Below, in pieces: positions 7,760 through 57,214 of a stretch of 64,000 bases of DNA. The notes under the pieces were generated by a model. The model ran no database searches, was not told the DNA's origin, and saw only the letters and a list, made by a program, of their open reading frames with translations. The stretch is taken from assembly GCF_048403405.1 (NCBI RefSeq), contig NZ_CP183129.1; one strand, 5' to 3'. Source of the stretch: Escherichia coli (lineage in GTDB: Bacteria > Pseudomonadota > Gammaproteobacteria > Enterobacterales > Enterobacteriaceae). The position numbers were made by a program, and so were the translations under genes. The stretch's first letter is position 1. The number at the start of each line of letters is the position of its first letter.

Positions 7760-8001
7760 AAAAAAGGCGACAGATTACTCTGTCGCCTTTTTTCCTGACT
7801 CATAACCCTTAACGGGTCTTACAATCCTTGCAGGCCGCCAACACACCCTGTTTTTCCATTAGCCGGAACAATCCGTGTTGATTCCATTTCCGTTTAATTA
7901 CGTCTCCGGACGTTTGTCTTCCTGACAATCCTCTGTCTTCGCCTCCTGGCGCTCCTGACCCTCATCCTGAGTCATTGTTCCTGTTAGCGTCCTCGCTCTA
8001 T
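7760..8001 (-). ncRNA. csrC: CsrC small RNA (CsrA-sequestering)
   Basis: Minus strand reads ATAGAGCGAGGACGCTAACAGGAACAATGACTCAGGATGAGGGTCAGGAGCG... with many GGA/AGGA motifs, ending in the terminator GGCGACAGAGTAATCTGTCGCC-TTTTTT; lies between engB and yihI as in E. coli. Confidence 0.72.
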
Positions 8002-42372: not shown

Positions 42373-42388
42373 AGTGATGCAAATCACA
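42373..42388. promoter_or_regulatory. CRP-type site in the udp promoter region
   Basis: Minus strand TGTGATTTGCATCACT (TGTGA-N6-TCACt); the udp promoter is CRP/CytR-controlled in E. coli (recalled). Confidence 0.45.
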
Positions 42389-42508
42389 TAAATCACTCTT
42401 CATTCTGCAGGACTGCATAAAAGATGAGCCGATTCAGGCAATGTGATTTGTTGCATGCTGACTATAGTTAACATTGCGCAACATTTTTATAAGGGTACGG
42501 AGAATACC

Positions 42509-43318
42509 ATGGCAACAACACAACAATCTGGATTTGCACCTGCTGCATCGCCTCTAGCTTCGACCATCGTTCAGACCCTGGACGACGCGATTGTGGCGGG
42601 CTTCACCTCTATCCCTTCACAAGGGGATAACATGCCTGCTTACCATGCCAGACCAAAGCAAAGCGATGGCCCACTGCCAGTGGTCATTGTAGTGCAGGAA
42701 ATTTTTGGCGTGCATGAACATATTCGCGACATTTGTCGCCGTCTGGCGCTGGAGGGGTATCTGGCTATCGCACCTGAACTTTACTTCCGCGAAGGCGATC
42801 CGAATGATTTTGCCGATATCCCCACGTTGCTTAGCGGTCTGGTAGCAAAAGTGCCTGACTCGCAGGTGCTGGCCGATCTCGATCATGTCGCCAGTTGGGC
42901 TTCCCGCAACGGCGGCGATGTTCATCGTTTAATGATCACCGGATTCTGCTGGGGTGGACGTATCACCTGGCTGTATGCCGCGCATAATCCACAGCTAAAA
43001 GCCGCAGTGGCGTGGTACGGCAAACTGACGGGCGATAAGTCGCTGAATTCACCGAAACAACCTGTTGATATCGCAACCGATCTTAACGCGCCGGTTCTCG
43101 GCTTATATGGCGGCCAGGATAACAGCATTTCGCAAGAGAGCGTGGAAACGATGCGCCAGGCGCTGCGGGCAGCAAACGCGAAAGCAGAAATTATCGTGTA
43201 CCCGGATGCAGGGCATGCGTTCAACGCCGATTATCGTCCGAGCTATCATGCCGAGTCTGCGAAAGACGGCTGGCAGCGAATGTTGGAATGGTTTACACAG
43301 TATGGTGTTAAAAAGTAA
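42509..43318 (+). CDS. ysgA: dienelactone hydrolase-family protein (carboxymethylenebutenolidase-like)
   Basis: Starts MATTQQSGFAPAASPLASTIVQTLDDAIVAGF... at the ATG at 42509 with SD GGAGAA; the ORF-track start at 42443 is upstream; divergent from udp as in E. coli. Confidence 0.85.
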   Translation: MATTQQSGFAPAASPLASTIVQTLDDAIVAGFTSIPSQGDNMPAYHARPKQSDGPLPVVIVVQEIFGVHEHIRDICRRLALEGYLAIAPELYFREGDPNDFADIPTLLSGLVAKVPDSQVLADLDHVASWASRNGGDVHRLMITGFCWGGRITWLYAAHNPQLKAAVAWYGKLTGDKSLNSPKQPVDIATDLNAPVLGLYGGQDNSISQESVETMRQALRAANAKAEIIVYPDAGHAFNADYRPSYHAESAKDGWQRMLEWFTQYGVKK

Positions 43319-43574
43319 CGCCATAGTCGCTAAATCTGATGATTAAGCTCACACAATTTCAACGATTTTTTTAATCTCAAAACCATACAGCATCAAAAAA
43401 TTTGTTGCTGTATGCCACTCTTTGACTCCCTTCACATTCGTCATCACACCACCTGCTGAATGCAAAAATTTCGTTGCTGTGCGGCAAACTTTTTTCCTGT
43501 TTTGTGCCGCTTTTCTCCTGAATACTCGTTCTCAGAACAACTGGATCGTTTAAACATCAGACAGGAGATTTACC

Positions 43575-44243
43575 ATGACGCAATCCATTTTTCAGGCTCA
43601 ACCCTTTGAATTACCTTTTGATCCGCGCACAACTGCACTGGTCATGATCGACATGCAGCGTGACTTTGTCGAAGCAGGGGGCTTCGGTGAGGCACTGGGC
43701 AATGATGTTTCACTGGTACGCACGGCTATCGCACCATGTACAGAGGTGCTGGCAGCCGCACGTCAAAAAGGAATTATGGTTATTCATACTCGTGAAGGCC
43801 ATCGTGCAGACTTAAGCGACTGCCCGCCAGCCAAACTGACGCGCGGCGGAAAAACCTTTATTGGTGAACCAGGACCGATGGGACGCATTCTGGTCAGAGG
43901 TGAAGCAGGTCATGACATCATTCCTGAACTGTACCCGGTGGCAGGCGAACCGGTGATTGATAAGCCTGGCAAAGGCGCGTTTTATCAAACCGACTTACAT
44001 CTGATTTTGCAAAACCACGGTATCAAGACGCTGATAGTTTGTGGTGTAACAACCGAAGTTTGCGTAACCACCACCGTGCGCGAAGCAAATGATCGTGGCT
44101 ATGAATGCATTATCCCGGAAGATTGTGTCGGCTCCTATTTCCCGGAATTCCAGAAATACGCCCTCGAGATGATCAAAGCACAAGGTGCCATTTTCGGTTG
44201 GGTTACTGATTCCAAAGCCATTATTGCAGGTCTGGAAGGCTAA
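43575..44243 (+). CDS. isochorismatase-family cysteine amidohydrolase (RutB / biuret hydrolase / N-carbamoylsarcosine amidase-like); first gene of accessory module A
   Basis: 222 aa; SD AGGAG; VMIDMQRDF Asp motif and the C-G-V-T-T-E-V-C-V nucleophile region typical of isochorismatase-like hydrolases; exact enzyme not determinable. Confidence 0.78.
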   Translation: MTQSIFQAQPFELPFDPRTTALVMIDMQRDFVEAGGFGEALGNDVSLVRTAIAPCTEVLAAARQKGIMVIHTREGHRADLSDCPPAKLTRGGKTFIGEPGPMGRILVRGEAGHDIIPELYPVAGEPVIDKPGKGAFYQTDLHLILQNHGIKTLIVCGVTTEVCVTTTVREANDRGYECIIPEDCVGSYFPEFQKYALEMIKAQGAIFGWVTDSKAIIAGLEG

Positions 44244-44248
44244 CGCCG

Positions 44249-45109
44249 ATGGCACAGATTACGCTTTGCGCATCGTCGTTGGGATATCTTTTCCCGCAGA
44301 ATGAAACGCAAGATTTACGTCTGCATAGCGCTTTTAAACATGCGGTAAATCTGTATTCAGAAGCGGGAACATTCATCACTCTGTTGTGTGCGCAAACGTA
44401 TCTGAATCTCCCTGATGCTGCCAGAGTCTGGCTACCTGAATGTTGGGACTGGCGAAGAGAGATTGCCCATTCCGATCCCGTTCAGTTAACCCCAGGCTTA
44501 CTGCAGACACCTCGCTTTTGTGTGGCTCTCGATAACGCAACGCTCTGGCAGCCGTCATTTGTGGGAGGAAGGCTGACACTTGAGGCGTTCCCTTTGGTTT
44601 TCCAGCACTACCCAACGATGGCATCGCAACGGCTTTTATTTTGTCTGGAGCATAACGTTCAAAGCACATTGCACCTGCCGGATAGTCTCACGCACCAGGG
44701 ATTAGCGATTATGGAACATCCAGATGCGCTGGAACGCCAGGTGCCACAACTGATCGGCTTTGGTAAAGGCTTAACGCCCGATGGAGATGACTATTTGTTG
44801 GGCTATCTGGCAGCACTCTGGTTATGGCAACTCCCTGCACCACTTGCCGATCATCAATACCGGTTGCAGCAGGCAATTGATCAACATGCGCACAACACCA
44901 CGGATATCAGTCGTCATTATCTGGAGCGTGCGCTTCAGGGACATTTTTCAGAACCGATTTGCCAGTTACTCGCACAACTGGTTGGGAGCGCATCGGCAAT
45001 GACAATCGCATCCTGTGCAGAACAGGTCATGCAATTTGGCGCAACGTCAGGAGTAGATTGCCTTGCAGGAATGCTGCATGGCTTTCGAACCCTGAACACC
45101 ATGAATTGA
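44249..45109 (+). CDS. DUF2877-like protein (YahE/YlbF-type)
   Basis: 286 aa; 5 nt after the upstream stop; G-rich loop IGFGKGLTPDGDD; family assignment is by size and gene context (recalled family), not by search. Confidence 0.55.
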   Translation: MAQITLCASSLGYLFPQNETQDLRLHSAFKHAVNLYSEAGTFITLLCAQTYLNLPDAARVWLPECWDWRREIAHSDPVQLTPGLLQTPRFCVALDNATLWQPSFVGGRLTLEAFPLVFQHYPTMASQRLLFCLEHNVQSTLHLPDSLTHQGLAIMEHPDALERQVPQLIGFGKGLTPDGDDYLLGYLAALWLWQLPAPLADHQYRLQQAIDQHAHNTTDISRHYLERALQGHFSEPICQLLAQLVGSASAMTIASCAEQVMQFGATSGVDCLAGMLHGFRTLNTMN

Positions 45110-45203
45110 TTTCAACCTTTTCTCCTGTAGCTCATTTATGGCGCTACACGGGGATGCTTTGCCCGAATTTTACTATCGGGCGGAATGAAACAGGCGTAAC
45201 AGC

Positions 45204-46763
45204 ATGAAAGTTAAATATAAAGTTTTCAGTAATCTTTATCAGGACTCAGTTTCTCTGATGCAGATTTCCGCGCAAATCAGCAAGTTGCCCGGTATTCAAC
45301 AGGCCTCGGTCGTCATGGGAACACCCAATAATCTCGAACAATTGCGCGATGCGGGTCTGGGTAACGAAATCAACGCCAGTCCCAATGATTTAGTGATTGC
45401 AGTCATGGGTGAAGAAGATATTTGCAATGAAGCACTGGCACTGGCCCAGCAACGTCTGACCAGCAAACCCGATGATGAAACGGATAGTGGCATTAAAACA
45501 CCGGAAAATGTCAGCCTGGACATGGCACTGGAAGCCGAACCCGAAGCCAACCTGGCACTCATTTCTGTACCGGGAGACTACGCCGCCGCCGAAGCAATTA
45601 AAGCGTTAAACCTCGGAATGAACGTGATGATGTTCAGCGATAACGTCAGTATCGCGCAGGAAAAATCCATCAAAATACTTGCCCGAGAACGTCAGCGCAT
45701 CGTAATGGGACCTGACTGTGGAACCGCCATTGTTAACGGCATTCCGTTAGGCTTCGCTAATGTGGTGAAACGCGGAGCAATTGGTGTTATTGGCGCGTCA
45801 GGCACCGGGCTACAGGAAGTGACTTGCCGAATCGACCAGCTCGGAGCGGGTATTTCTCAGGCGCTGGGAACAGGCGGGCATGATCTCAGTGAAGAGATTG
45901 GTGGAATATCGATGCTCTTCGCTTTAGATGCGCTGGCGCAAGACGATGAAACTCGCGTAATTGTGCTGATTTCAAAACCGCCTTCACCGATCGTTGCCCG
46001 GACTATTCTGGAGCGTGCCGAGGCTTGTGGAAAACCCGTGGTGGTGAATTTCCTCGGTGCGAATCCGCATGATCTGGCACGTCCCAATATCACTGCCGCC
46101 ACCACACTTGCCAGCGCCGCCGACATCGCTGTGGCGTTACTGAATGCTCAGCCACTTCCGGCTGTCGAGACCGAGATTTCCTGCGCCGATCTCACAATGT
46201 TACAAAACGCCTGTCAGCGCCTGCCAGCCCATCGCCAGGCGATACGCGGTGTTTTCGCCGGAGGAACCTTCTGCTACGAAGCGCAACTTATCTGCCAGCA
46301 AAAGGGATTCCGCGCCGCCTCCAATACGCCAGTTGCGAGTAATCGTACTCTGGCAAATATCTGGCAAAGCGAAGATCACACGCTGATCGATATGGGCGAC
46401 GATGATTTCACCCGTGGCAAACCGCATCCAATGATCGACCCGACTCTGCGCAATCAACGTCTGCTCAACGAACTCAACGACTCACACACTGCCGTCGTGT
46501 TATTCGACCTGGTACTTGGTTATGGCGCTTCCGCTACACCTGCCAGCGAATTACTGGACCAACTTTCACACATCGACATGAATAACGCACCGTTGCTGAT
46601 TGCGCACGTTTGCGGAACGGAAGCTGATCCGCAAATACGCAGTCAGCAGATAAGCGCACTACAAAATGCGGGCATCATCATTGCCAGCAGCAATGCACAG
46701 GCGGCGCTATGGGCCAGCGTCGTTGCGCAGACTCAGTTGCAGAAAAAGGGGCTAAACGCATGA
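45204..46763 (+). CDS. FdrA-like protein (NDP-forming acyl-CoA synthetase / succinyl-CoA synthetase alpha-like fold)
   Basis: 519 aa; shares recalled FdrA blocks: QDSVSLM, LALISVPG-YAA, NVMMFSDNV, VMGPDCGT, GVIGASGTG, DMGDDDFTRGKPHPMIDPTLRNQ. Confidence 0.7.
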   Translation: MKVKYKVFSNLYQDSVSLMQISAQISKLPGIQQASVVMGTPNNLEQLRDAGLGNEINASPNDLVIAVMGEEDICNEALALAQQRLTSKPDDETDSGIKTPENVSLDMALEAEPEANLALISVPGDYAAAEAIKALNLGMNVMMFSDNVSIAQEKSIKILARERQRIVMGPDCGTAIVNGIPLGFANVVKRGAIGVIGASGTGLQEVTCRIDQLGAGISQALGTGGHDLSEEIGGISMLFALDALAQDDETRVIVLISKPPSPIVARTILERAEACGKPVVVNFLGANPHDLARPNITAATTLASAADIAVALLNAQPLPAVETEISCADLTMLQNACQRLPAHRQAIRGVFAGGTFCYEAQLICQQKGFRAASNTPVASNRTLANIWQSEDHTLIDMGDDDFTRGKPHPMIDPTLRNQRLLNELNDSHTAVVLFDLVLGYGASATPASELLDQLSHIDMNNAPLLIAHVCGTEADPQIRSQQISALQNAGIIIASSNAQAALWASVVAQTQLQKKGLNA

Positions 46764-48184
46764 ATACCTTATTTAATCAGCCTTTGAAGGTTGTGAACGC
46801 GGGACTACACAGTTTTGCTGACAATATTCAACATGCCGGGGGAAGCGCAATTGCACTCAACTGGCAGCCACCAGCACAAGGCGATATTGACGCTGGATTG
46901 GATCTGGCATCGTTGCTACGTCATCCACTGGTAGAAAATGCCAACCAAATCGCCATGACACGTTATCTCGAAGCACAGCCCGTGCTGGTAGATGTCATGC
47001 TCGCTAAAGAGGCCATTCCAGCAATGGCTGAACAAAAACGTATTTTGCACTCTGGCCCGCCGATTGCCTGGGAAGAGATGTGTGGTCCGGTAAAAGGGGC
47101 GATTATTGGTGCCATGCTGTACGAAGGTTGGGCCACCAGCCAGCAAGACGCTGAAAACCAGATAAACGCAGGCGAAATCGACCTTGCCCCTTGTCATCAT
47201 TATCACGCGGTTGGCCCAATGGCTGGCATCATCAGCCCGTCGATGCCGTTATGGGTGGTAGAAAACAAAACCAACGGCCACCGTACTTTTAGCAATTTCA
47301 ATGAAGGTCTGGGTAAGGTTCTCCGTTTTGGCGCCAATAACGATGAAGTTCTCAATCGTCTGGCCTGGATGCGCGATGAACTGGCGCCGGCAATGAAAGC
47401 AGCAATCGCACAACACGGCGAGCTGGAACTCAAGCCATTAATGGCGCAGGCGCTGCATATGGGGGATGAAGTTCATAACCGCAATGCTGCCGCTACCGGT
47501 TTGCTGATTAAGCGCCTGCTCCCGGCATTGCTGGCCTGCTCTCTTCCACAGGAACATATCCAGCGCGTCGTGGCATTTATCACCGGTAACGATCACTTCT
47601 TCCTCAATCTGTCGATGGCTGCCTGTAAAGCAATGATGGATGCCGCCGCCAATGTACCGTTCAGTTCAATGGTTACGGTGATGGCGCGTAACGGGGTGAA
47701 TTTTGGTATTCGGCTTTCCGGTACTGGCGATCGCTGGTTCCAGGCTCCTGCCAATGCCGTTGAAGGTCTGTTCTTCCCCGGATTTGGCGTTGACGACGCT
47801 GCTGCTGACCTGGGTGATAGCGCAATTACTGAAACCGCAGGTGTGGGTGGCTTCGCGATGGCGTCGTCTCCGGCGATCGTCAAATTTGTGGGAGGCACCC
47901 CTGCCGATGCCACCAATAACAGCCGTCGGATGCAAGCCATCACCCTCGGCGGTAACCCCGCATTTACACTTCCAGCCCTCAATTTTGCCCCCACCGCAGC
48001 AGGGATTGATGCGCGTAAAGTGACCGATCGCGGCATTTTACCGGTCATCAATACGGGTATCGCCCACAAACAAGCGGGGGTCGGGCAAATTGGTGCCGGG
48101 ATCACCACTGCGCCGATGGCCTGTTTTGTCGCCGCTGTACGTGCACTGGCGGAGATCGTCGCAAAGGAGAACCATCATGGTTAA
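46760..48184 (+). CDS. DUF1116-like protein (YlbE/YahG-type)
   Basis: 474 aa from MNTLFNQPLKVVNAGLHSF; ATG overlaps the upstream TGA (ATGA coupling); size and position match the YahG/YlbE partner of FdrA-like proteins (recalled). Confidence 0.6.
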   Translation: MNTLFNQPLKVVNAGLHSFADNIQHAGGSAIALNWQPPAQGDIDAGLDLASLLRHPLVENANQIAMTRYLEAQPVLVDVMLAKEAIPAMAEQKRILHSGPPIAWEEMCGPVKGAIIGAMLYEGWATSQQDAENQINAGEIDLAPCHHYHAVGPMAGIISPSMPLWVVENKTNGHRTFSNFNEGLGKVLRFGANNDEVLNRLAWMRDELAPAMKAAIAQHGELELKPLMAQALHMGDEVHNRNAAATGLLIKRLLPALLACSLPQEHIQRVVAFITGNDHFFLNLSMAACKAMMDAAANVPFSSMVTVMARNGVNFGIRLSGTGDRWFQAPANAVEGLFFPGFGVDDAAADLGDSAITETAGVGGFAMASSPAIVKFVGGTPADATNNSRRMQAITLGGNPAFTLPALNFAPTAAGIDARKVTDRGILPVINTGIAHKQAGVGQIGAGITTAPMACFVAAVRALAEIVAKENHHG

Positions 48185-49133
48185 GCCACTGGCTGTTGTC
48201 GCGGTTGGCGGCAATGCGCTCATTCAGGACGAGCAACGCAATAGTATTCCCGATCAATATGTTGCAGTGATGGAAAGCGTGCAGCATATCGTTGATATGG
48301 TTGAAGCCGGATGGGACCTGGTGCTAACCCACGGTAATGGCCCGCAGGTGGGCTTTATTCTGCGCCGCTCTGAACTCGCCAGTAACGAAGTTTCTCCGGT
48401 TCCACTTGATTACGCCGTGGGTGATACACAAGGTGCAATTGGCTACATGTTCCAGAAAGCGCTGCATTACGAATTGGCTCGCCGTGGCATAAACAAACCG
48501 GTAATTGCCCTGGTGACACAAACGCGAGTCAGCCCACATGACGATGCTTTCGCCAACCCCAGTAAACCGATTGGCGCGTTTCTCGATGAAGCAACGGCCC
48601 AACAACGCCAACAACAACTCGGCTGGACGCTGATGGAGGACGCCGGGCGTGGTTGGCGGCGTACAGTTCCCTCTCCTGCACCACTGGAAATTATTGAGCA
48701 CGACACCATCGCTCACCTGGTGCGCCAGGGATATCTGGTTATTGCCTGCGGCGGCGGCGGTATTCCGGTGGTGCGAGACGGGCAACAACTGAAAGGTGTA
48801 GAAGCCGTGATCGATAAAGATCTGGCCTCCGCGCTGCTCGCCAGTCAGTTAGGCGCAGATCTGCTGGTGATCCCCACCGGTGTAGAAAAAGTGGCGATTA
48901 ACTTTGGTACACCACAACAACAGTGGCTCGACGCTATCAGCGTTGCCGAAGCGCAAACGCTGTTGCGGGAAGGTCAGTTTGGTGTCGGCAGTATGCAACC
49001 CAAAGTGGAAGCCATTGTTGATTTCATCAATGCCAGCCAGCAACAAGGCAAACAGGCCAGCGGCCTGATTACTTCACCGCAAACCATAAAAGCAGCCCTG
49101 GCGCATCAGAGCGGTACATGGATAACCCTTTAA
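48177..49133 (+). CDS. carbamate kinase
   Basis: 318 aa from MVKPLAVVAVGGNALIQDEQ; SD AAGGAGA; carbamate/amino-acid kinase motifs VVAVGGNAL and IACGGGGIPV; start overlaps the upstream gene by 8 nt. Confidence 0.85.
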   Translation: MVKPLAVVAVGGNALIQDEQRNSIPDQYVAVMESVQHIVDMVEAGWDLVLTHGNGPQVGFILRRSELASNEVSPVPLDYAVGDTQGAIGYMFQKALHYELARRGINKPVIALVTQTRVSPHDDAFANPSKPIGAFLDEATAQQRQQQLGWTLMEDAGRGWRRTVPSPAPLEIIEHDTIAHLVRQGYLVIACGGGGIPVVRDGQQLKGVEAVIDKDLASALLASQLGADLLVIPTGVEKVAINFGTPQQQWLDAISVAEAQTLLREGQFGVGSMQPKVEAIVDFINASQQQGKQASGLITSPQTIKAALAHQSGTWITL

Positions 49134-49149
49134 ATCTCTGGAGAACACA

Positions 49150-49539
49150 ATGACTACAACGCTTTTAGCCGTTAACGGAACGCTGATGCGCGGCCTGGAA
49201 CTCAACCCAAATATGAAAAAAGCGGGCGGTATTTTTGTCCGTGAAGACCGAACTGACGCCCATTACCGGTTGTGGAGTATTAACGATCGCCATCCGGGAA
49301 TGATTCGCGTGAATGAAGGAGGAACACACGTCGACGTAGAAATTTGGCAATTACCGCTGGCCAGTTTTGCCGCTCTGTTAATGAGCGAACCCGCTGGGCT
49401 GGCAATTGGCAAAATCAAACTTGCCGATGGTAGCGAAGTGCTGGGCGTACTGGCAGAAAACTGGCTGACCGAAGGCCAACGGGAAATTACAGAACTGGGC
49501 GGCTGGCGCAAATACACCGGGCATTTTCATACTGTGTAA
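49150..49539 (+). CDS. small GGCT/AIG2-like protein (gamma-glutamyl cyclotransferase-like fold), function unknown
   Basis: 129 aa; N-terminal LLAVNGTLMRG resembles the YGSL/GTLxxG motif of AIG2/GGCT-like proteins; weak, motif-based. Confidence 0.45.
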   Translation: MTTTLLAVNGTLMRGLELNPNMKKAGGIFVREDRTDAHYRLWSINDRHPGMIRVNEGGTHVDVEIWQLPLASFAALLMSEPAGLAIGKIKLADGSEVLGVLAENWLTEGQREITELGGWRKYTGHFHTV

Positions 49540-49564
49540 CGCGCATTTATAAAGGGAACATACT

Positions 49565-50788
49565 ATGCGTAAAAAAGAAGAGAATCTGAATACGGCATCA
49601 GGATTGCGTATTGCCATGATTTTGCTGGGTATTGCCGTCACACCTGTGCTGTTGTCATCCTCAAGCCTCGGCAATCAACTTTCCAGCGGCAGTTTAATTA
49701 GCGTCGTATTGTTAGGCGGCGTCATTCTGACCTTACTTTCAGCCATCACCATTAGCGTGGGAGAAAAAGCCCGCCTGCCAACGTATGGCATTGTGAAATA
49801 TTCGTTTGGCGAAAAAGGGGCCATCGCCATTAACATTTTGATGGCGATAAGTCTGTTCGGCTGGATTGCCGTTACCGCCAATATGTTTGGTCATTCGGTA
49901 CATGACTTACTGGCTCAACATGGACTGGAAGTTCCACTGGCACTGTTAGTGGCGGCTGGCTGTGTCATTTTTGTCGCCTCTACGGCATTTGGCTTTGCCG
50001 TTCTGGGAAAAATTGCCCAGGTTGCCGTGCCGGTTATCGCGCTGGTGCTGTGTTACATCCTCTATGTGGCAACCCATACCGAAGTGGCAGTACCAGCGGC
50101 GATTGTGGAGATGAATACAGGTGTCGCCGTTTCCACCGTTGTTGGCACCATTATTGTGCTGGTTGCCACACTGCCTGATTTCGGTAGTTTTGTGCATAAC
50201 CGCAAACATGCACTGATTGCCGCAGGCGTGACGTTTCTGGTTGCCTACCCTCTGCTCTACTGGGCGGGTGCAACGCCGAGCGCCATTAGTGGTCAGGGAT
50301 CTTTACTGGGTGCGATGGCGGTATTCGGTGCGGTTCTGCCTGCGGCGCTGTTGTTGATTTTCGCCTGCGTCACCGGTAACGCGGGCAATATGTTCCAGGG
50401 CACGCTGGTGGTTTCCACACTGCTTACCCGCTTTCCCAAATGGCAGATTACCGTGGCGCTGGGTATCCTTTCCGCCATCGTAGGCAGTATGGATATTATG
50501 GCGTGGTTTATTCCGTTTCTGCTGTTCCTGGGTATCGCCACGCCACCCGTTGCCGGAATTTATATCGCTGACTTTTTCCTTTATCGCCGTAATGGCTATC
50601 AAGAGTCAGTGTTAGCCCAGGAGTCACAGATTAAAGTGCTGACATTCGCAGCATGGATCATAGGCGCAGCGGTTGGCTTTATGACCGTAAAAGGCTTATT
50701 CACCCTGACGACGATCCCTTCGGTAGACTCGATTCTGGTGGCATGTATCGCGTATGCGATTCTCAGTCGGGCAAGTCAACACCGCTAA
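49565..50788 (+). CDS. NCS1-family permease (CodB-like nucleobase/cytosine-type transporter)
   Basis: 407 aa, multi-TM; C-terminal block IPPVAGIYIADFFLYRRNGY closely resembles the recalled CodB IPPVGGVIIADYLMNRRRYE. Confidence 0.75.
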   Translation: MRKKEENLNTASGLRIAMILLGIAVTPVLLSSSSLGNQLSSGSLISVVLLGGVILTLLSAITISVGEKARLPTYGIVKYSFGEKGAIAINILMAISLFGWIAVTANMFGHSVHDLLAQHGLEVPLALLVAAGCVIFVASTAFGFAVLGKIAQVAVPVIALVLCYILYVATHTEVAVPAAIVEMNTGVAVSTVVGTIIVLVATLPDFGSFVHNRKHALIAAGVTFLVAYPLLYWAGATPSAISGQGSLLGAMAVFGAVLPAALLLIFACVTGNAGNMFQGTLVVSTLLTRFPKWQITVALGILSAIVGSMDIMAWFIPFLLFLGIATPPVAGIYIADFFLYRRNGYQESVLAQESQIKVLTFAAWIIGAAVGFMTVKGLFTLTTIPSVDSILVACIAYAILSRASQHR

Positions 50789-50865: not shown

Positions 50866-51771
50866 ATGTTCATCTCAGACGAAACGCTTCGTGTTATTCA
50901 TCTGGTCGCCAGACACCAGAGCATTACCATCGCAGCCGAGCAGTTAAATAAAGTCCCTTCCGCCATCAGTTACACCATCAAGAAAGCGGAAGAGAGCCTG
51001 GGCGTTGAACTGTTCATTCGTAAGGGACGCTATATTGAATTATCGCCAGCGGGAAGTTACTTCATCGAACATAGCAAAACTATTCTTGGCGACCTGGAAG
51101 CATTAAAGCGCAACACAGTGCTGATTCACGATGGTATTGAGCGTGAACTGACAATTGCGGTAAACAATATTATTCCTGGTAATTTGCTGGTGGCATTTAT
51201 TCGAGATTTTGAACGGCAATTCACATCAACAACACTGACGGTAGATCTTGAGGTATACAACGGCTGCTGGGATGCGCTGTACAGTAAGCGTGCTGATCTG
51301 GTCTACGGTGCTCCTCATGCAGTACCAAGTAGTGAAGGCATCATTAGCGAACCGGTCGGACAAATGGAATGGGATTTTGTCGTCAGCCCACTCCACCCAC
51401 TGGCAGCGAAGCGGCATCCATTAGAAAACAGTGAATTGCGTCATTATCCAGCGGTTTGTATCCGCGATACCTCCGTTAACTTCCCCCCGATGCAAGCCTG
51501 GTTGTTGGAAGGACAAAAACCCATTTTTGTTCCTGACTTCGCTACGGCAATCGCCTTAATAGAACAAAACGTCGGTATTGGTTATATTCCACATCATCTG
51601 GCATTGCCGTTATTGAACAGCGGTAAATTGCTTAAAAAGCCAATGCGCGAACATAAACACGCCACCAAGTTATTTCTTGCCGCTCGTTCCGATGGTATGG
51701 GCAAAGCCTGTCAGTGGTGCATAGAATATTTAAGAAACCCGCAATTAATGACACGATTTGTATTTAATTGA
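50866..51771 (+). CDS. LysR-family transcriptional regulator
   Basis: 301 aa; N-terminal wHTH (SITIAAEQLNKVPSAISYTIKKAEESLGVELFIRKGR) and LysR substrate-binding domain; SD GGGAG. Confidence 0.85.
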   Translation: MFISDETLRVIHLVARHQSITIAAEQLNKVPSAISYTIKKAEESLGVELFIRKGRYIELSPAGSYFIEHSKTILGDLEALKRNTVLIHDGIERELTIAVNNIIPGNLLVAFIRDFERQFTSTTLTVDLEVYNGCWDALYSKRADLVYGAPHAVPSSEGIISEPVGQMEWDFVVSPLHPLAAKRHPLENSELRHYPAVCIRDTSVNFPPMQAWLLEGQKPIFVPDFATAIALIEQNVGIGYIPHHLALPLLNSGKLLKKPMREHKHATKLFLAARSDGMGKACQWCIEYLRNPQLMTRFVFN

Positions 51772-51970: not shown

Positions 51971-52816
51971 ATGAATAACATAACCGTAAAAAGTCTGATT
52001 CAAAGCAATTACCCTACACTGCATCAGGCGGAAAAAAAGGTCGCCGACTATATTCTTAGCCACGCACATGAAGTCGTGAACTATAGTGTCACTGAACTAT
52101 CAGAAAAAAGCCATGCCAGTGAAGCGACTATCGTGCGCACCTGTAAGAAATTAGGTTATCAGGGTTATTACCATTTAAAAATTGCATTAGCAAAAGAAGT
52201 CATTAATCCTGACAATAGCTATCCTGATAATACCGATTTTACCGATATAACGTCGCTGGCCACATTTTTATTAAAAAAACAGGCCGAAGATTTAATACAA
52301 TCAACGCAATTTTTTAATGCCGAAGTGCTTGAGTCCATTCTCAAACTACTTGCTAATTGCGATACTATTTTCTTTTTTGCTGCCGGAAATTCAAACCCTC
52401 TGGCCGTTTATGGTGCTTATAAATTCAGCCAACTCGGATTAAAAACCGTTGTTCACGTCAGCCCGGAAATGCAAATTAATGCGGCATATTCTATGGGGAA
52501 ACGCGACCTGGCGATTGGTATTTCTAACTCTGGCAGCACCAACTTAATGGTCGATATCTTTAAAGTGGTGAAAGAGCGCGGTGCCAAATCCGTTTGTATC
52601 ACTAACTATATTAAATCTCCGTTATCAAAACTCTCCACCCATCAACTCAATACCGCGGTCAGCGATAAAATCTTCTTTGAAGCCTTCGACTCCACTCGCG
52701 TTCCGGCAATGGGCGTTATTGATATGCTGGTGCTGTTGTTTATGTATAAAAACAAGGCGCATTACGAGAAATACCGCACCCGTGAAGAGTTTCTCGGCTC
52801 CCGTTTCAAGGGGTAA
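51971..52816 (+). CDS. RpiR/MurR-family transcriptional regulator (HTH plus SIS domain)
   Basis: 281 aa MNNITVKSLIQSNYPTLHQAEKKVADYILSH...; HTH_6 then SIS sugar-phosphate-binding domain. Confidence 0.85.
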   Translation: MNNITVKSLIQSNYPTLHQAEKKVADYILSHAHEVVNYSVTELSEKSHASEATIVRTCKKLGYQGYYHLKIALAKEVINPDNSYPDNTDFTDITSLATFLLKKQAEDLIQSTQFFNAEVLESILKLLANCDTIFFFAAGNSNPLAVYGAYKFSQLGLKTVVHVSPEMQINAAYSMGKRDLAIGISNSGSTNLMVDIFKVVKERGAKSVCITNYIKSPLSKLSTHQLNTAVSDKIFFEAFDSTRVPAMGVIDMLVLLFMYKNKAHYEKYRTREEFLGSRFKG

Positions 52817-52838
52817 AAGGTCATCCTTTCACCCCTTG
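52807..52838. terminator. bidirectional stem-loop between convergent rpiR-like and transketolase genes
   Basis: CAAGGGGTAAAAGG-tcat-CCTTTCACCCCTTG (14-bp stem, one mismatch); the left arm includes the rpiR stop codon. Confidence 0.55.
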
Positions 52839-57008: not shown

Positions 57009-57214
57009 CTCATGAAATAATTTTCTCAAACACAAAATCTCATGAAATTTTATTTCATTCCAATGCATCAGTATGAAATGTGAAGCTAGTCACAAGAAAG
57101 ATCATAGGTTGATATGTTTTTCATTAAAAAACATATAGATATCAAGTAATTTTTAATATGTGATGGAGAGGCAGATAGAAAAAATGGCGGAAATGACGAA
57201 ATTTATTTCATGAG
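57009..57214 (-). promoter_or_regulatory. control region of the SIS-PTS-transketolase operon: consensus CRP site (TGTGAAGCTAGTCACA, 57078-57093) and repeated CTCATGAAAT motifs (57009-57018, 57039-57048; inverted copy 57205-57214)
   Basis: Motifs read directly in a ~290-bp AT-rich spacer upstream of the first operon gene; a possible -10 TAAAAT on the minus strand at 57052-57047. Confidence 0.55.

What the first reader, a model, noticed from the sequence alone, without database searches (positions are those of the whole stretch)
43384..43488. Paired related motifs upstream of module A (candidate operator sites)
The 256-bp spacer upstream of the hydrolase gene contains CATACAGCA-N13-TGCTGTATG (a 9-bp inverted repeat, 43384-43414) and about 69 bp downstream a related copy, GCAAAAATTTCGTTGCTGT (43462-43480). 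Both share AAAAATTT-N-GTTGCTGT. No canonical sigma-70 -10 or sigma-54 TGGCAC-N5-TTGC element is evident, which hints at an activator-dependent promoter, plausibly governed by the LysR protein encoded at the operon end.
Basis: seen in the sequence. Interest (0 to 1): 0.45.

Follow-up and report, generated by a model that had tools for sequence, protein, structure and literature searches.

The report
LysR-type operator pair, CRP-assisted promoter
The two related motifs are real and conserved across many bacteria; they are most likely the binding sites through which the operon's own LysR-type regulator, probably helped by CRP, switches on a nitrogen-compound breakdown operon in a known pathogenic E. 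coli genomic island, which makes this an ordinary kind of control region not described before for this operon.

Summary
CATACAGCA-N13-TGCTGTATG (43384-43414) and the related copy 69 bp downstream (43462-80) are there. The window is E. coli, and the spacer is the left edge of the known tkt1 genomic island (ysgA/metE) of B2 ExPEC.

It is an inner dyad, (A)TCAA-N5-TTG(A), an LTTR-type T-N11-A box. This matches the core of the validated operator of PunR, the nearest characterised homologue of the operon's LysR protein.

Invariant columns mark these elements:
- site 1 (centre 43399);
- site 2 (centre 43468);
- a half-box 22 bp further on (43480-43500);
- a -10 hexamer, AATACT/TATACT (43521-26);
- a CRP-like site, TTTGA-N6-TCACA (43421-36).

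Site 2 lies 51-53 bp before the -10 in nearly all taxa, which places it near -65, the classical LTTR position.

PWMs trained without E. coli rank the two sites first and second in the 64-kb window. The motif co-occurs with the LysR gene, wherever that gene sits, and is absent from LysR-less operons.

Binding, the transcription start and the effector are all untested. This is a new member of a known kind and of moderate interest.

The parts
43338..43353 (+). Box A: conserved GCTCACA. This may be a weak distal CRP-like site (GATGATTAAGCTCACA, 8/10). It marks the start of the conserved regulatory block.
   Evidence: TCACA is conserved in alignment A1. CRP-like hits of 8/10 occur about 83-84 bp upstream of the main CRP-like site in 8 Enterobacterales loci, 7 besides this window. 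The left half lies at the edge of conservation, so the assignment is tentative.
43360..43376 (+). Box A': a weak, degenerate LTTR-like box (CAACGATTTTTTTAATC, centre 43368), 31 bp upstream of site 1.
   Evidence: Orthologous boxes score 8-19 bits, 31-35 bp (mostly 31-32) upstream of site 1, in 12 of 21 Enterobacterales. The E. coli copy falls below the threshold and was placed by alignment.
43384..43414 (.). Site 1 (distal operator). The E. coli palindrome is CATACAGCAtCAAA-AAA-TTTGtTGCTGTATG. The conserved core is 43389-43409, AGCATCAAAAAATTTGTTGCT, with dyad centre at 43399.
   Evidence: palindrome rarity; invariant columns at 43392, 43394 and 43402-04; the PWM is palindromic, r=0.84; 24 bits, the top hit of the window; only the inner pairs are conserved.
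43421..43436 (.). CRP-like site TTTGA-CTCCCT-TCACA (9/10 to TGTGA-N6-TCACA), centre 43428.5, lying between the two operators.
   Evidence: one of 5 matches with <=1 mismatch in the window. Three of the five lie in intergenic promoter regions; conserved at -39.5/-40.5 or -50.5 from the proximal site in Enterobacterales, at -29.5/-30.5 in Vibrionaceae, and as a perfect site at -60.5 in Thorsellia.
43458..43478 (+). Site 2 (proximal operator, presumed recognition site, RBS): GAATGCAAAAATTTCGTTGCT. The core is GCAA-AAATT-TCG, centre 43468.
   Evidence: invariant columns at 43463-65, 43470-71, 43473 and 43476; 27.9 bits, the top hit of the window; the -10 starts 53 bp downstream, so the centre is near -65.
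43480..43500 (+). Box E (presumed activation site, ABS): TGCGGCAAACTTTTTTCCTGT, centre about 43490. It lies 22 bp from site 2 and overlaps the -35 position.
   Evidence: invariant columns at 43487-88, 43493-94 and 43497-98; 18.8 bits, the top hit of the window; the orthologous box in Serratia microhaemolytica lies 22 bp from its proximal site.
43521..43526 (+). The -10 hexamer AATACT (TATACT in most other genera). No recognisable -35.
   Evidence: invariant A43522, C43525 and T43526; a TAnnnT or AATACT hexamer lies 51-53 bp downstream of the proximal site centre across Gamma- and Betaproteobacteria.
43533..43534 (+). Inferred transcription start (conserved CA, 7-8 nt after the -10).
   Evidence: A43534 is nearly invariant in alignment A1. 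This is an inference only. The start has not been mapped.
43575..50788 (+). The regulated operon: BiuH-like cysteine hydrolase, AllH-like, FdrA/AllF-like, YlbE/AllG-like, carbamate kinase, allophanate-hydrolase C-terminal-domain protein, NCS1 permease.
   Evidence: Gene order is conserved in about 60 loci.
50866..51771 (+). LysR-type regulator gene of the PunR/AllS subfamily. It is probably co-transcribed with the operon.
   Evidence: PunR model 286 bits, AllS model 214 bits; 34% identity to PunR, with a similar recognition helix, VPSAISYTIKK against VPSAVSYTVRQ; no terminator or strong promoter in the 78-bp gap.

Best explanation
The 256-bp spacer is the control region of a sigma-70 promoter that lacks a -35 element and depends on activators. 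Its -10 is AATACT (43521-26). The inferred start is 43533-34.

The two motifs are operators for the PunR/AllS-like LysR-type regulator (LTTR) encoded at the end of the same operon. Each contains the dyad (T/G)CAA-N5-T(T/C)G.

Site 2 (centre about -65) together with the adjacent box E (centre about -43, overlapping the -35 position) forms the classical recognition-site/activation-site pair. Through this pair an LTTR tetramer would contact RNA polymerase once it has bound its still unknown effector.

Site 1 (centre about -135) is the most symmetrical of these sites and presumably the highest-affinity one. With its weak partner box A', 31 bp upstream, it would hold a second LTTR unit on the same helical face. 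A CRP-like site (centre about -105) lies between the two operators. DNA bending by CRP there could bring the two LTTR units together and add catabolite control.

Because the regulator gene sits at the operon end, induction would be self-reinforcing.

What is shown: sequence conservation, motif relatedness, fixed geometry, co-occurrence with the regulator gene, and similarity to the PunR operator. What is inferred: actual binding, activation rather than repression, the transcription start, the role of CRP, and cooperation between the distal and proximal sites.
For: Location and context:
- The window is E. coli, and the spacer belongs to the tkt1 island between ysgA and metE.
- The spacer is single-copy. 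It occurs in 1499 of 5426 complete genomes and is >=99% identical in 1496 of them.

Conservation and motif relatedness:
- Alignment of 21 Enterobacterales upstream regions gives invariant columns exactly at ATCAA/TTG of site 1, at CAA..TT.G..G of site 2, at AA..TT..CT of box E, and at the -10.
- The site 1 PWM is palindromic (r=0.84). The site 1 and site 2 PWMs align best at the 69-bp register (r=0.61).
- PWMs built without E. coli rank site 1 and site 2 as the two best positions among about 128,000 in the window. Each PWM finds the other site second.

Link to the LysR gene:
- The operon and an adjacent PunR-like LysR gene co-occur in three different arrangements.
- The Enterobacterales-trained PWM gives the top-ranked hit of the whole locus upstream of the hydrolase gene in 30 of 31 LysR-carrying non-enterobacterial loci (median 16.5 bits). 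The figure is 5 of 19 for LysR-less loci (median 3.4 bits). Mann-Whitney p=1.6e-8 and Fisher p=1.6e-7, not corrected for phylogeny.

Geometry:
- A -10-like hexamer starts 51-53 bp downstream of the proximal site centre in nearly all taxa, and 62 bp downstream in the Crenobacter group.
- Spacing between the distal and proximal sites is 69-71, 79-81 or 100-103 bp. All three classes share the same helical phase.
- The CRP-like site is 9/10 to consensus and steps by about 10 bp between lineages.

Similarity to a characterised relative:
- The PunR operator, validated by ChIP-exo, fluorescence polarisation and EMSA, has the consensus TsttwTCAAwAwwwTTGaaGGCA (PMC8376909).
- In K-12 its core centre lies 53 bp before a TACACT hexamer.
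- The recognition helices of the two proteins are similar.
Against: - There are no binding, expression or start-site data for this promoter. The geometry rests on an inferred -10.
- The minimal core TCAA-N5-TTGA (>=7/8 positions) is not rare in the window: 8 found against 6.9 expected. Specificity must therefore come from flanking positions and context.
- E. coli site 1 is T-N11-T rather than T-N11-A. Site 2 matches the ideal dyad in only 5 of 8 positions.
- The regulator is only 34% identical to PunR, and the PunR operator scores only 11 bits with the site 1 PWM.
- The helical-phase argument rests on only 3-4 independent spacing classes.
- The left half of the CRP-like site is weak and is absent in several Serratia.
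- Some LysR-less Caballeronia loci still show 11-13-bit hits.
- The co-occurrence statistics ignore phylogenetic non-independence.
Confidence: 0.72

Rival explanations
1. The same protein binds the same sites, but the main function is repression. LTTR units at site 1 and site 2 would loop the intervening 69 bp, helped by a CRP bend, and keep the promoter shut until the effector releases the loop. On this reading the distal site is a negative element rather than an auxiliary activating one.
For: There are two dyads at a phase-conserved spacing of 69-71, 79-81 or 100-103 bp. The distal site is the better palindrome. The weak partner boxes lie 31 bp and 22 bp away, which recalls the extended and compact LTTR tetramer footprints known for the family (established knowledge of BenM/CbnR-type LTTRs, not tested here).
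Against: The promoter lacks a -35 and has a non-consensus -10, so it should need activation anyway. The closest relatives, PunR and AllS, are activators. Several betaproteobacterial loci (Silvimonas terrae, Dyella, Crenobacter, Craterilacuibacter) show no scored distal site, so the distal site is dispensable for the basic mechanism.
Confidence: 0.15
2. The motifs are bound by a different regulator. Candidates are the host's chromosomal PunR or AllS acting by cross-talk, or a LacI-type protein such as CytR, whose TGCAA/TTGCA half sites resemble site 2. The operon's LysR protein would not be involved.
For: The core TCAA-N5-TTG is shared with the PunR operator. The AllS-bound fragment of the allF promoter resembles box A. 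Site 2 contains AATGCAAa...GTTGCtgt, which resembles CytR octamers (recalled from memory, not tested). A CRP-like site lies nearby.
Against: The motif tracks the operon-linked LysR gene across Gamma-, Beta- and Alphaproteobacteria. I did not check whether PunR, AllS or CytR are absent from those taxa. The PunR operator scores only 11 bits and the allD-allF region only about 11 bits with the site 1 PWM, against 24 bits for site 1 itself. There is no second CRP site at the 52-53 bp spacing typical of CytR promoters (my reading).
Confidence: 0.1
3. Site 1 is an RNA hairpin rather than a protein site. It would act as the transcription terminator or a stabiliser of the upstream ysgA mRNA, and the second copy would be fortuitous.
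For: The 31-nt palindrome forms a hairpin in the minimum-free-energy fold of the spacer, and the spacer folds better than shuffles (z=-3.6). It lies 66 nt after the ysgA stop codon.
Against: No U-tract follows it, and the terminator scan does not call it. The block is conserved in species where the upstream gene is not ysgA. Only the inner CAA/TTG pairs are invariant, the outer pairs are unpaired in 33-67% of sequences, and overall pairing is 65%. No Rfam family reaches its threshold.
Confidence: 0.04
4. The repeat is a by-product of island insertion (a target-site or att-like duplication), or simply chance in AT-rich spacer DNA.
For: The spacer is the left edge of a horizontally acquired island. 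K-12 has only 39 bp between ysgA and metE.
Against: There is no copy at the other island end or anywhere else in the window. The same paired sites occur in genera where the operon sits in other chromosomal contexts. Shuffles give 0.09 expected matches.
Confidence: 0.02

Closest known systems
PunR (YdhB) operator at the punC promoter of E. coli K-12 (PMC8376909)
   Same: The half sites and spacing are the same: TCAA-N5-TTG(A) inside a ~21-23 bp palindrome with an A/T-rich centre. The regulator belongs to the same LTTR subfamily; PunR is the best NCBIfam model for the island protein, and the recognition helices are similar. The site centre lies 53 bp upstream of a -10-like hexamer in both promoters. 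PunR is an activator.
   Different: Protein identity is only 34%. The flanks differ (GCA..TGC here, against ggtt..GGCA), and the PunR operator scores 11 bits against 24-28 bits for the sites here. Here there are two strong sites plus two weak boxes and a CRP-like site. The regulator gene lies at the operon end rather than divergent. The target is a 7-gene catabolic operon, not a single transporter gene.
AllS/ArcA-activated allF (fdrA-ylbE-ylbF-ybcF) promoter of E. coli K-12 (PMC12535856)
   Same: The target genes are paralogous (FdrA/AllF, YlbE/AllG, YlbF/AllH, carbamate kinase). The LTTR is from the same subfamily; AllS is the second-best model. The activator site lies far upstream, and a global regulator acts as co-activator. 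The AllS-bound fragment, GCTCACTTTTAACCTGATTTTTAAAAC, resembles box A.
   Different: The AllS gene is remote from its target, and the co-activator is ArcA rather than CRP. No TCAA-N5-TTG dyad of comparable score exists in the allD-allF spacer. Protein identity is 31%.
Classical LTTR promoters with a recognition site at about -65 and an activation site at about -35/-45 (for example CbnR, BenM/CatM, NodD ATC-N9-GAT boxes; established knowledge)
   Same: An interrupted dyad fits T-N11-A or ATC-N9-GAT. It is perfect in the Edwardsiella, Budvicia, Limnobaculum, Shewanella and Motilimonas orthologues. The proximal site lies near -65, a degenerate half-box lies two turns downstream over the -35, and the -35 itself is weak.
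   Different: An additional strong distal dyad lies near -135, with its own weak partner. The regulator is not divergently transcribed in Enterobacterales. CRP is interposed between the two operators.
CRP acting from about -103.5 upstream of a primary activator (for example uhpT with UhpA; recalled from memory, not checked here)
   Same: The CRP-like site is centred about 105 bp upstream of the inferred start, beyond the primary activator's sites.
   Different: CRP binding here is only predicted, and the left half site is weak (TTTGA).

Membership tests
LTTR operator (recognition/activation site architecture) | An interrupted dyad of about 15 bp conforming to T-N11-A | tested here: met
   The conserved dyad is ATCAA-N5-TTGAT / TCAA-N5-TTG. 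The orthologues have perfect ATC-N9-GAT. The E. coli copy of site 1 is T-N11-T, and site 2 is degenerate (5/8 of the ideal core).
LTTR operator (recognition/activation site architecture) | A recognition site near -65 and a weaker activation site overlapping -35 | tested here: inconclusive
   The site 2 centre lies 53 bp before a conserved -10 hexamer, and box E lies 22 bp downstream of site 2. The positions follow only if the inferred -10 and start are right. No start-site data exist.
LTTR operator (recognition/activation site architecture) | A cognate LysR-family gene linked to the target, with the motif co-occurring with it | tested here: met
   The LysR gene is at 50866-51771. Linkage is conserved in three arrangements. 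The motif is top-ranked in 30 of 31 LysR+ loci against 5 of 19 LysR- loci.
LTTR operator (recognition/activation site architecture) | Direct, effector-modulated binding of the LTTR to the sites | not testable with these tools
   This needs EMSA, footprinting or ChIP.
PunR regulon site | A match to the 23-bp consensus TsttwTCAAwAwwwTTGaaGGCA, flanks included | tested here: not met
   The core matches but the flanks do not. In the reciprocal test the PunR operator scores 11 bits with the site 1 PWM, a level reached by 12 background positions in the window. The sites are therefore not filed as PunR sites.
CRP binding site | TGTGA-N6-TCACA with 6-bp spacing, in a promoter region | tested here: met
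   The site is 9/10 to consensus at 43421-43436. There are 5 such sites in the window against 2.0 expected, and 3 of them lie in promoter spacers. The position is conserved, with steps of about 10 bp between lineages. Binding itself was not tested.
Intrinsic terminator | A GC-rich hairpin followed by a U-tract | tested here: not met
   Site 1 is not called by the scan and has no U-tract. Only a marginal 5-bp stem is called, at 43473-85. The pairing is not conserved.
Sigma-54 promoter | TGGCAC-N5-TTGC (GG/GC spaced 10 bp apart) | tested here: not met
   No match with <=2 mismatches lies within 43319-43574.

The most novel reading that the evidence does not exclude
The distal and proximal dyads, their weak partner boxes and the interposed CRP site would form one phase-locked, higher-order nucleoprotein complex: two LTTR tetramers bridged over a CRP bend. 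The architecture would be conserved from Enterobacterales to Vibrionaceae with spacings of 70, 80 or 101 bp. It would gate a widespread, unusually conserved, ATP-yielding ureide or carbamoyl-compound catabolic operon of unknown substrate, which B2 ExPEC carry on a virulence-associated island.
Probability: 0.25. Interest if true: 0.55.

Novelty: new member of a known kind. Interest (0 to 1): 0.38.

Why it matters
The operon lies on the tkt1 island. According to the 2012 description of that island, it is enriched in B2 extraintestinal pathogenic E. coli, and its genes had no assigned function or regulation (PMC3349570).

The analysis defines a concrete regulatory map: operators, a CRP-like site, a -10 element and a likely transcription start. 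This gives ready-made reporter constructs and a cognate sensor protein with which to search for the unknown inducer. The inducer would in turn point to the substrate of a BiuH-like hydrolase / AllFGH-like transcarbamylase / carbamate kinase pathway that is conserved at 80-88% identity across distant Proteobacteria.

The work also extends the recognition code TCAA-N5-TTGA from PunR to a second branch of the PunR/AllS subfamily. The mechanism itself, an LTTR plus CRP at a sigma-70 promoter, is conventional.

Tried and rejected
- **Minimal core as a significance test.** Counting the core TCAA-N5-TTGA (>=7/8, AT-rich centre) gave 8 hits against 6.9 expected, so it is useless alone. I replaced it with PWMs from orthologous sites.
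Such repeats are common (30 in the window). Only the extended 14-nt-arm palindrome is rare.
- **Insertion scar or att duplication.** K-12 has 39 bp between ysgA and metE, and the island starts in the last ysgA codons. There is no motif copy at the other end. Rejected.
- **RNA element.** Rfam gave only sub-threshold chance hits. The terminator scan was negative for site 1, and pair counts show that only the inner pairs are conserved. Rejected.
- **Sigma-54.** No match in the spacer.
- **CytR idea.** This rested on TGCAA/TTGCA half sites recalled from memory. There is no second CRP site at CytR-type spacing, and the motif follows the operon-linked LysR gene into Beta- and Alphaproteobacteria. 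Presence or absence of CytR in those taxa was not checked. Set aside.
- **AllS motif.** The allD-allF spacer has no strong TCAA-N5-TTG dyad. Only a resemblance to box A was seen. Left as an unexplained note.
- **Literature search by locus tags and accession.** This found only the 2012 island paper, and no prior regulatory description in the held library.
- **Population variation.** The spacer is >=99% identical in 1496 of 1499 E. coli genomes, which is too little variation to be informative. In the one divergent allele read (E69, L003), the changes fall outside the invariant columns.

Full report
**1. What and where**

The window is E. coli. The 9.6 kb around the finding is 100% identical to several clinical isolates and is present in about 1550 of 5426 complete genomes.

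RefSeq annotation of an identical strain, ORFs and NCBIfam give this layout:

| Gene | Coordinates |
|---|---|
| ysgA | 42443-43318 |
| 256-bp spacer | 43319-43574 |
| BiuH-like cysteine hydrolase | 43575-44243 |
| AllH-like | 44249-45109 |
| FdrA/AllF-like | 45204-46763 |
| YlbE/AllG-like | 46760-48184 |
| carbamate kinase | 48177-49133 |
| allophanate-hydrolase C-terminal-domain protein | 49150-49539 |
| NCS1 permease | 49565-50788 |
| LysR-type regulator | 50866-51771 |

These are followed by an RpiR-type regulator gene and a minus-strand tkt-ptsG-hxlB operon, and then metE.

K-12 has only 39 bp between ysgA and metE, and the last ysgA codons differ. The spacer is therefore the left edge of an accessory island. 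That island is the published 'tkt1 genomic island' of B2 ExPEC. The publication lists these genes as of unknown function and does not discuss their regulation (PMC3349570). Searches by locus tag and accession found nothing further.

**2. The observation**

All strings are at the stated coordinates.

- The inverted repeat is in fact a 31-nt near-perfect palindrome, CATACAGCAtCAAA-AAA-TTTGtTGCTGTATG. It is one of three palindromes of that quality in 64 kb, against 0.2 expected.
- A bare 9-bp inverted repeat is common (30 in the window).
- The shared 17-mer occurs only at these two places, against 0.09 expected.
- The register between the copies is exactly 69 bp.
- No sigma-54 element is present, and no complete -35/-10 pair is found on the + strand.

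**3. Comparative evidence**

The hydrolase is 80-88% identical across very distant Proteobacteria. One scan of species-representative genomes returned 80 loci.

tblastn mapping shows the same seven-gene operon in about 60 of them. A homologue of the LysR gene is placed in one of four ways:
- at the operon end (Enterobacterales, Burkholderiales, Dyella, Silvimonas);
- immediately upstream on the same strand (Vibrio, Photobacterium, Shewanella, Motilimonas, Halomonas, Thorsellia, Avibacterium);
- divergent (Crenobacter, Craterilacuibacter, Laribacter, Pseudovibrio);
- absent (Mycobacterium, Chloroflexi, several MAGs).

Aligning the upstream regions of 21 Enterobacterales gives 54% mean identity, but with sharply defined invariant columns:
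- 43392, 43394 and 43402-04: A.C(AA)...TTG of site 1;
- 43463-65, 43470-71, 43473 and 43476: CAA..TT.G..G of site 2;
- 43487-88, 43493-94 and 43497-98: box E;
- 43522 and 43525-26: a -10 hexamer, AATACT in E. coli, Citrobacter, Buttiauxella and Edwardsiella, and TATACT in most of the other genera.

The outer arms CATA/TATG are specific to E. coli: pair counts show the inner three pairs invariant and the outer ones unpaired in 33-67% of species.

**4. Are the two motifs related, and are they special?**

- PWMs from the alignment have about 20 and 23 bits of information.
- The site 1 PWM is palindromic (r=0.84).
- The two PWMs align best at the 69-bp register (r=0.61).
- PWMs rebuilt without the E. 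coli rows were scanned over both strands of the window. The site 1 PWM ranks site 1 first (24 bits) and site 2 next (15.5), with the best background hit at 15.0. The site 2 PWM ranks site 2 first (27.9) and site 1 second (24.1), with the best background hit at 14.3.
- The minimal core alone is not rare.

**5. Link to the LysR protein**

- NCBIfam places the regulator nearest PunR (286 bits) and AllS (214 bits).
- PunR's operator has been validated by ChIP-exo, fluorescence polarisation and EMSA. It is TsttwTCAAwAwwwTTGaaGGCA (PMC8376909), which has the same half sites and the same N5 spacing.
- The recognition helix is similar: VPSAISYTIKK here, VPSAVSYTVRQ in PunR, and VPSAVSYTVKK or VPSAISYTVRK in distant orthologues.
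- Outside Enterobacterales, the Enterobacterales-trained PWM finds the best or second-best hit of the whole ~20-kb locus within 320 nt upstream of the hydrolase gene in 30 of 31 loci that carry the LysR homologue (median 16.5 bits). It does so in only 5 of 19 loci without it (median 3.4 bits). Mann-Whitney p=1.6e-8 and Fisher p=1.6e-7, without correction for phylogeny.

**6. Geometry**

- A TAnnnT or AATACT hexamer begins 51-53 bp downstream of the proximal dyad centre in nearly all taxa, and 62 bp downstream in the Crenobacter group. In this window it begins 53 bp after the site 2 centre.
- With the nearly invariant A at 43534 as the likely start, site 2 is centred near -65/-66. Box E is near -43/-44, over the missing -35. 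These are the textbook LTTR recognition-site and activation-site positions. This step is an inference, because the start has not been mapped.
- In K-12, the PunR operator core is also 53 bp from a TACACT hexamer.
- The spacing between the distal and proximal dyads falls into three classes: 69-71 bp; 79-81 bp (Buttiauxella, Budvicia, Limnobaculum); and 100-103 bp (Vibrionaceae, Shewanella, Halomonas, Motilimonas). All share the same helical phase. This is suggestive only, because there are few independent classes.
- A weak third box lies 31-35 bp (mostly 31-32) upstream of site 1 in many Enterobacterales.
- Between the dyads lies TTTGA-N6-TCACA (9/10 to the CRP consensus).
- The equivalent of that site is found at -39.5/-40.5 or -50.5 from the proximal centre in Enterobacterales and at -29.5/-30.5 in Vibrionaceae. 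A perfect site lies at -60.5 in Thorsellia, and Avibacterium also has a perfect site.

**7. Mechanism proposed**

The promoter is an activator-dependent sigma-70 promoter. The operon's own PunR/AllS-like LTTR binds site 2 plus box E to recruit or reposition RNA polymerase when its effector is present. A second LTTR unit sits on site 1 (with box A') on the same helical face. CRP lies between them, providing catabolite control and a DNA bend.

No terminator or strong promoter separates the permease and LysR genes. The regulator is therefore probably part of the transcript it controls, which would give positive feedback.

Conservation, relatedness, co-occurrence and geometry are shown. Binding, the direction of regulation, the start site and the effector are inferred.

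**8. Rivals**

The rivals considered are a repression loop formed by the same protein, cross-talk from PunR, AllS or CytR, an RNA hairpin or terminator for ysgA, and an insertion scar or chance. Each is set out with its evidence in the rival explanations. The last two are essentially excluded.

**9. Comparison and novelty**

The region works like a classical LTTR promoter. Its operators belong to the PunR-type recognition class, but they are not PunR sites: the flanks differ, and the PunR operator scores only 11 bits.

The paralogous K-12 allF operon is likewise activated by an LTTR of this subfamily (AllS) together with a global regulator (ArcA) (PMC12535856).

I found no earlier description of this control region in the held literature. 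It is a new member of a known kind. Its interest is moderate, and comes mainly from offering a handle on an uncharacterised, highly conserved catabolic operon in a virulence-associated island.

Noticed in passing
window 57079-57094: A perfect CRP consensus, TGTGAAGCTAGTCACA, lies in the hxlB-metE spacer. This is the promoter side of the minus-strand hxlB-ptsG-tkt1 operon of the same island.
   Followed up: no
window 42373-42388: A CRP-like site, AGTGATGCAAATCACA (9/10), lies in the udp-ysgA intergenic region. From memory, udp is a classical CRP/CytR-controlled promoter.
   Followed up: no
window 43575-44243 and loci L003-L082: The BiuH-like cysteine hydrolase is 80-88% identical between E. coli, Vibrionaceae, Burkholderiales and Xanthomonadales. 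The seven-gene operon order is conserved in about 60 loci. The hydrolase scores below the BiuH cut-off (280 against 370 bits), so the substrate is unknown. The gene set suggests that a carbamoyl or ureide compound is broken down to carbamoyl phosphate and ATP.
   Followed up: partly
window 43290-43318, compared with L002 2855-2900: The island replaces the last codons of ysgA. The end is ...GGTGTTAAAAAGTAA here and ...GGTGGGAAGAAGTCGCTGTAA in K-12. The K-12 hairpin between ysgA and metE is absent here.
   Followed up: partly
window 7761-7792 and 52807-52838: Two other long palindromes have 14-nt arms with 0-1 mismatch. The second lies between the convergent RpiR-like and tkt1 genes and looks like a bidirectional terminator.
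   Followed up: no
L008 (CACSKA010000007.1, labelled Chryseobacterium sp. 18061): The locus has the enterobacterial operon. Its upstream region closely matches that of Buttiauxella izardii L016. The contig is probably a contaminant or is mislabelled.
   Followed up: no
L083 18478-18537 (K-12 allD-allF spacer), compared with window 43347-43376: The AllS-bound EMSA fragment contains GCTCACTTTTAACCTGATTTTTAAAAC. This resembles box A here, GCTCACACAATTTCAACGATTTTTTTAATC. A CTCAC-T-run element also follows the proximal dyad in Vibrionaceae loci. The meaning is unexplained.
   Followed up: partly
L034, L031, L050 (Caballeronia/Burkholderia loci without a LysR gene within 10 kb): These loci still show 11-13-bit dyad hits, such as TTCAAATAAATTGCA, about 57 nt before the hydrolase gene and downstream of a TATAAT. 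This may reflect a different regulatory arrangement, or a regulator encoded elsewhere.
   Followed up: no
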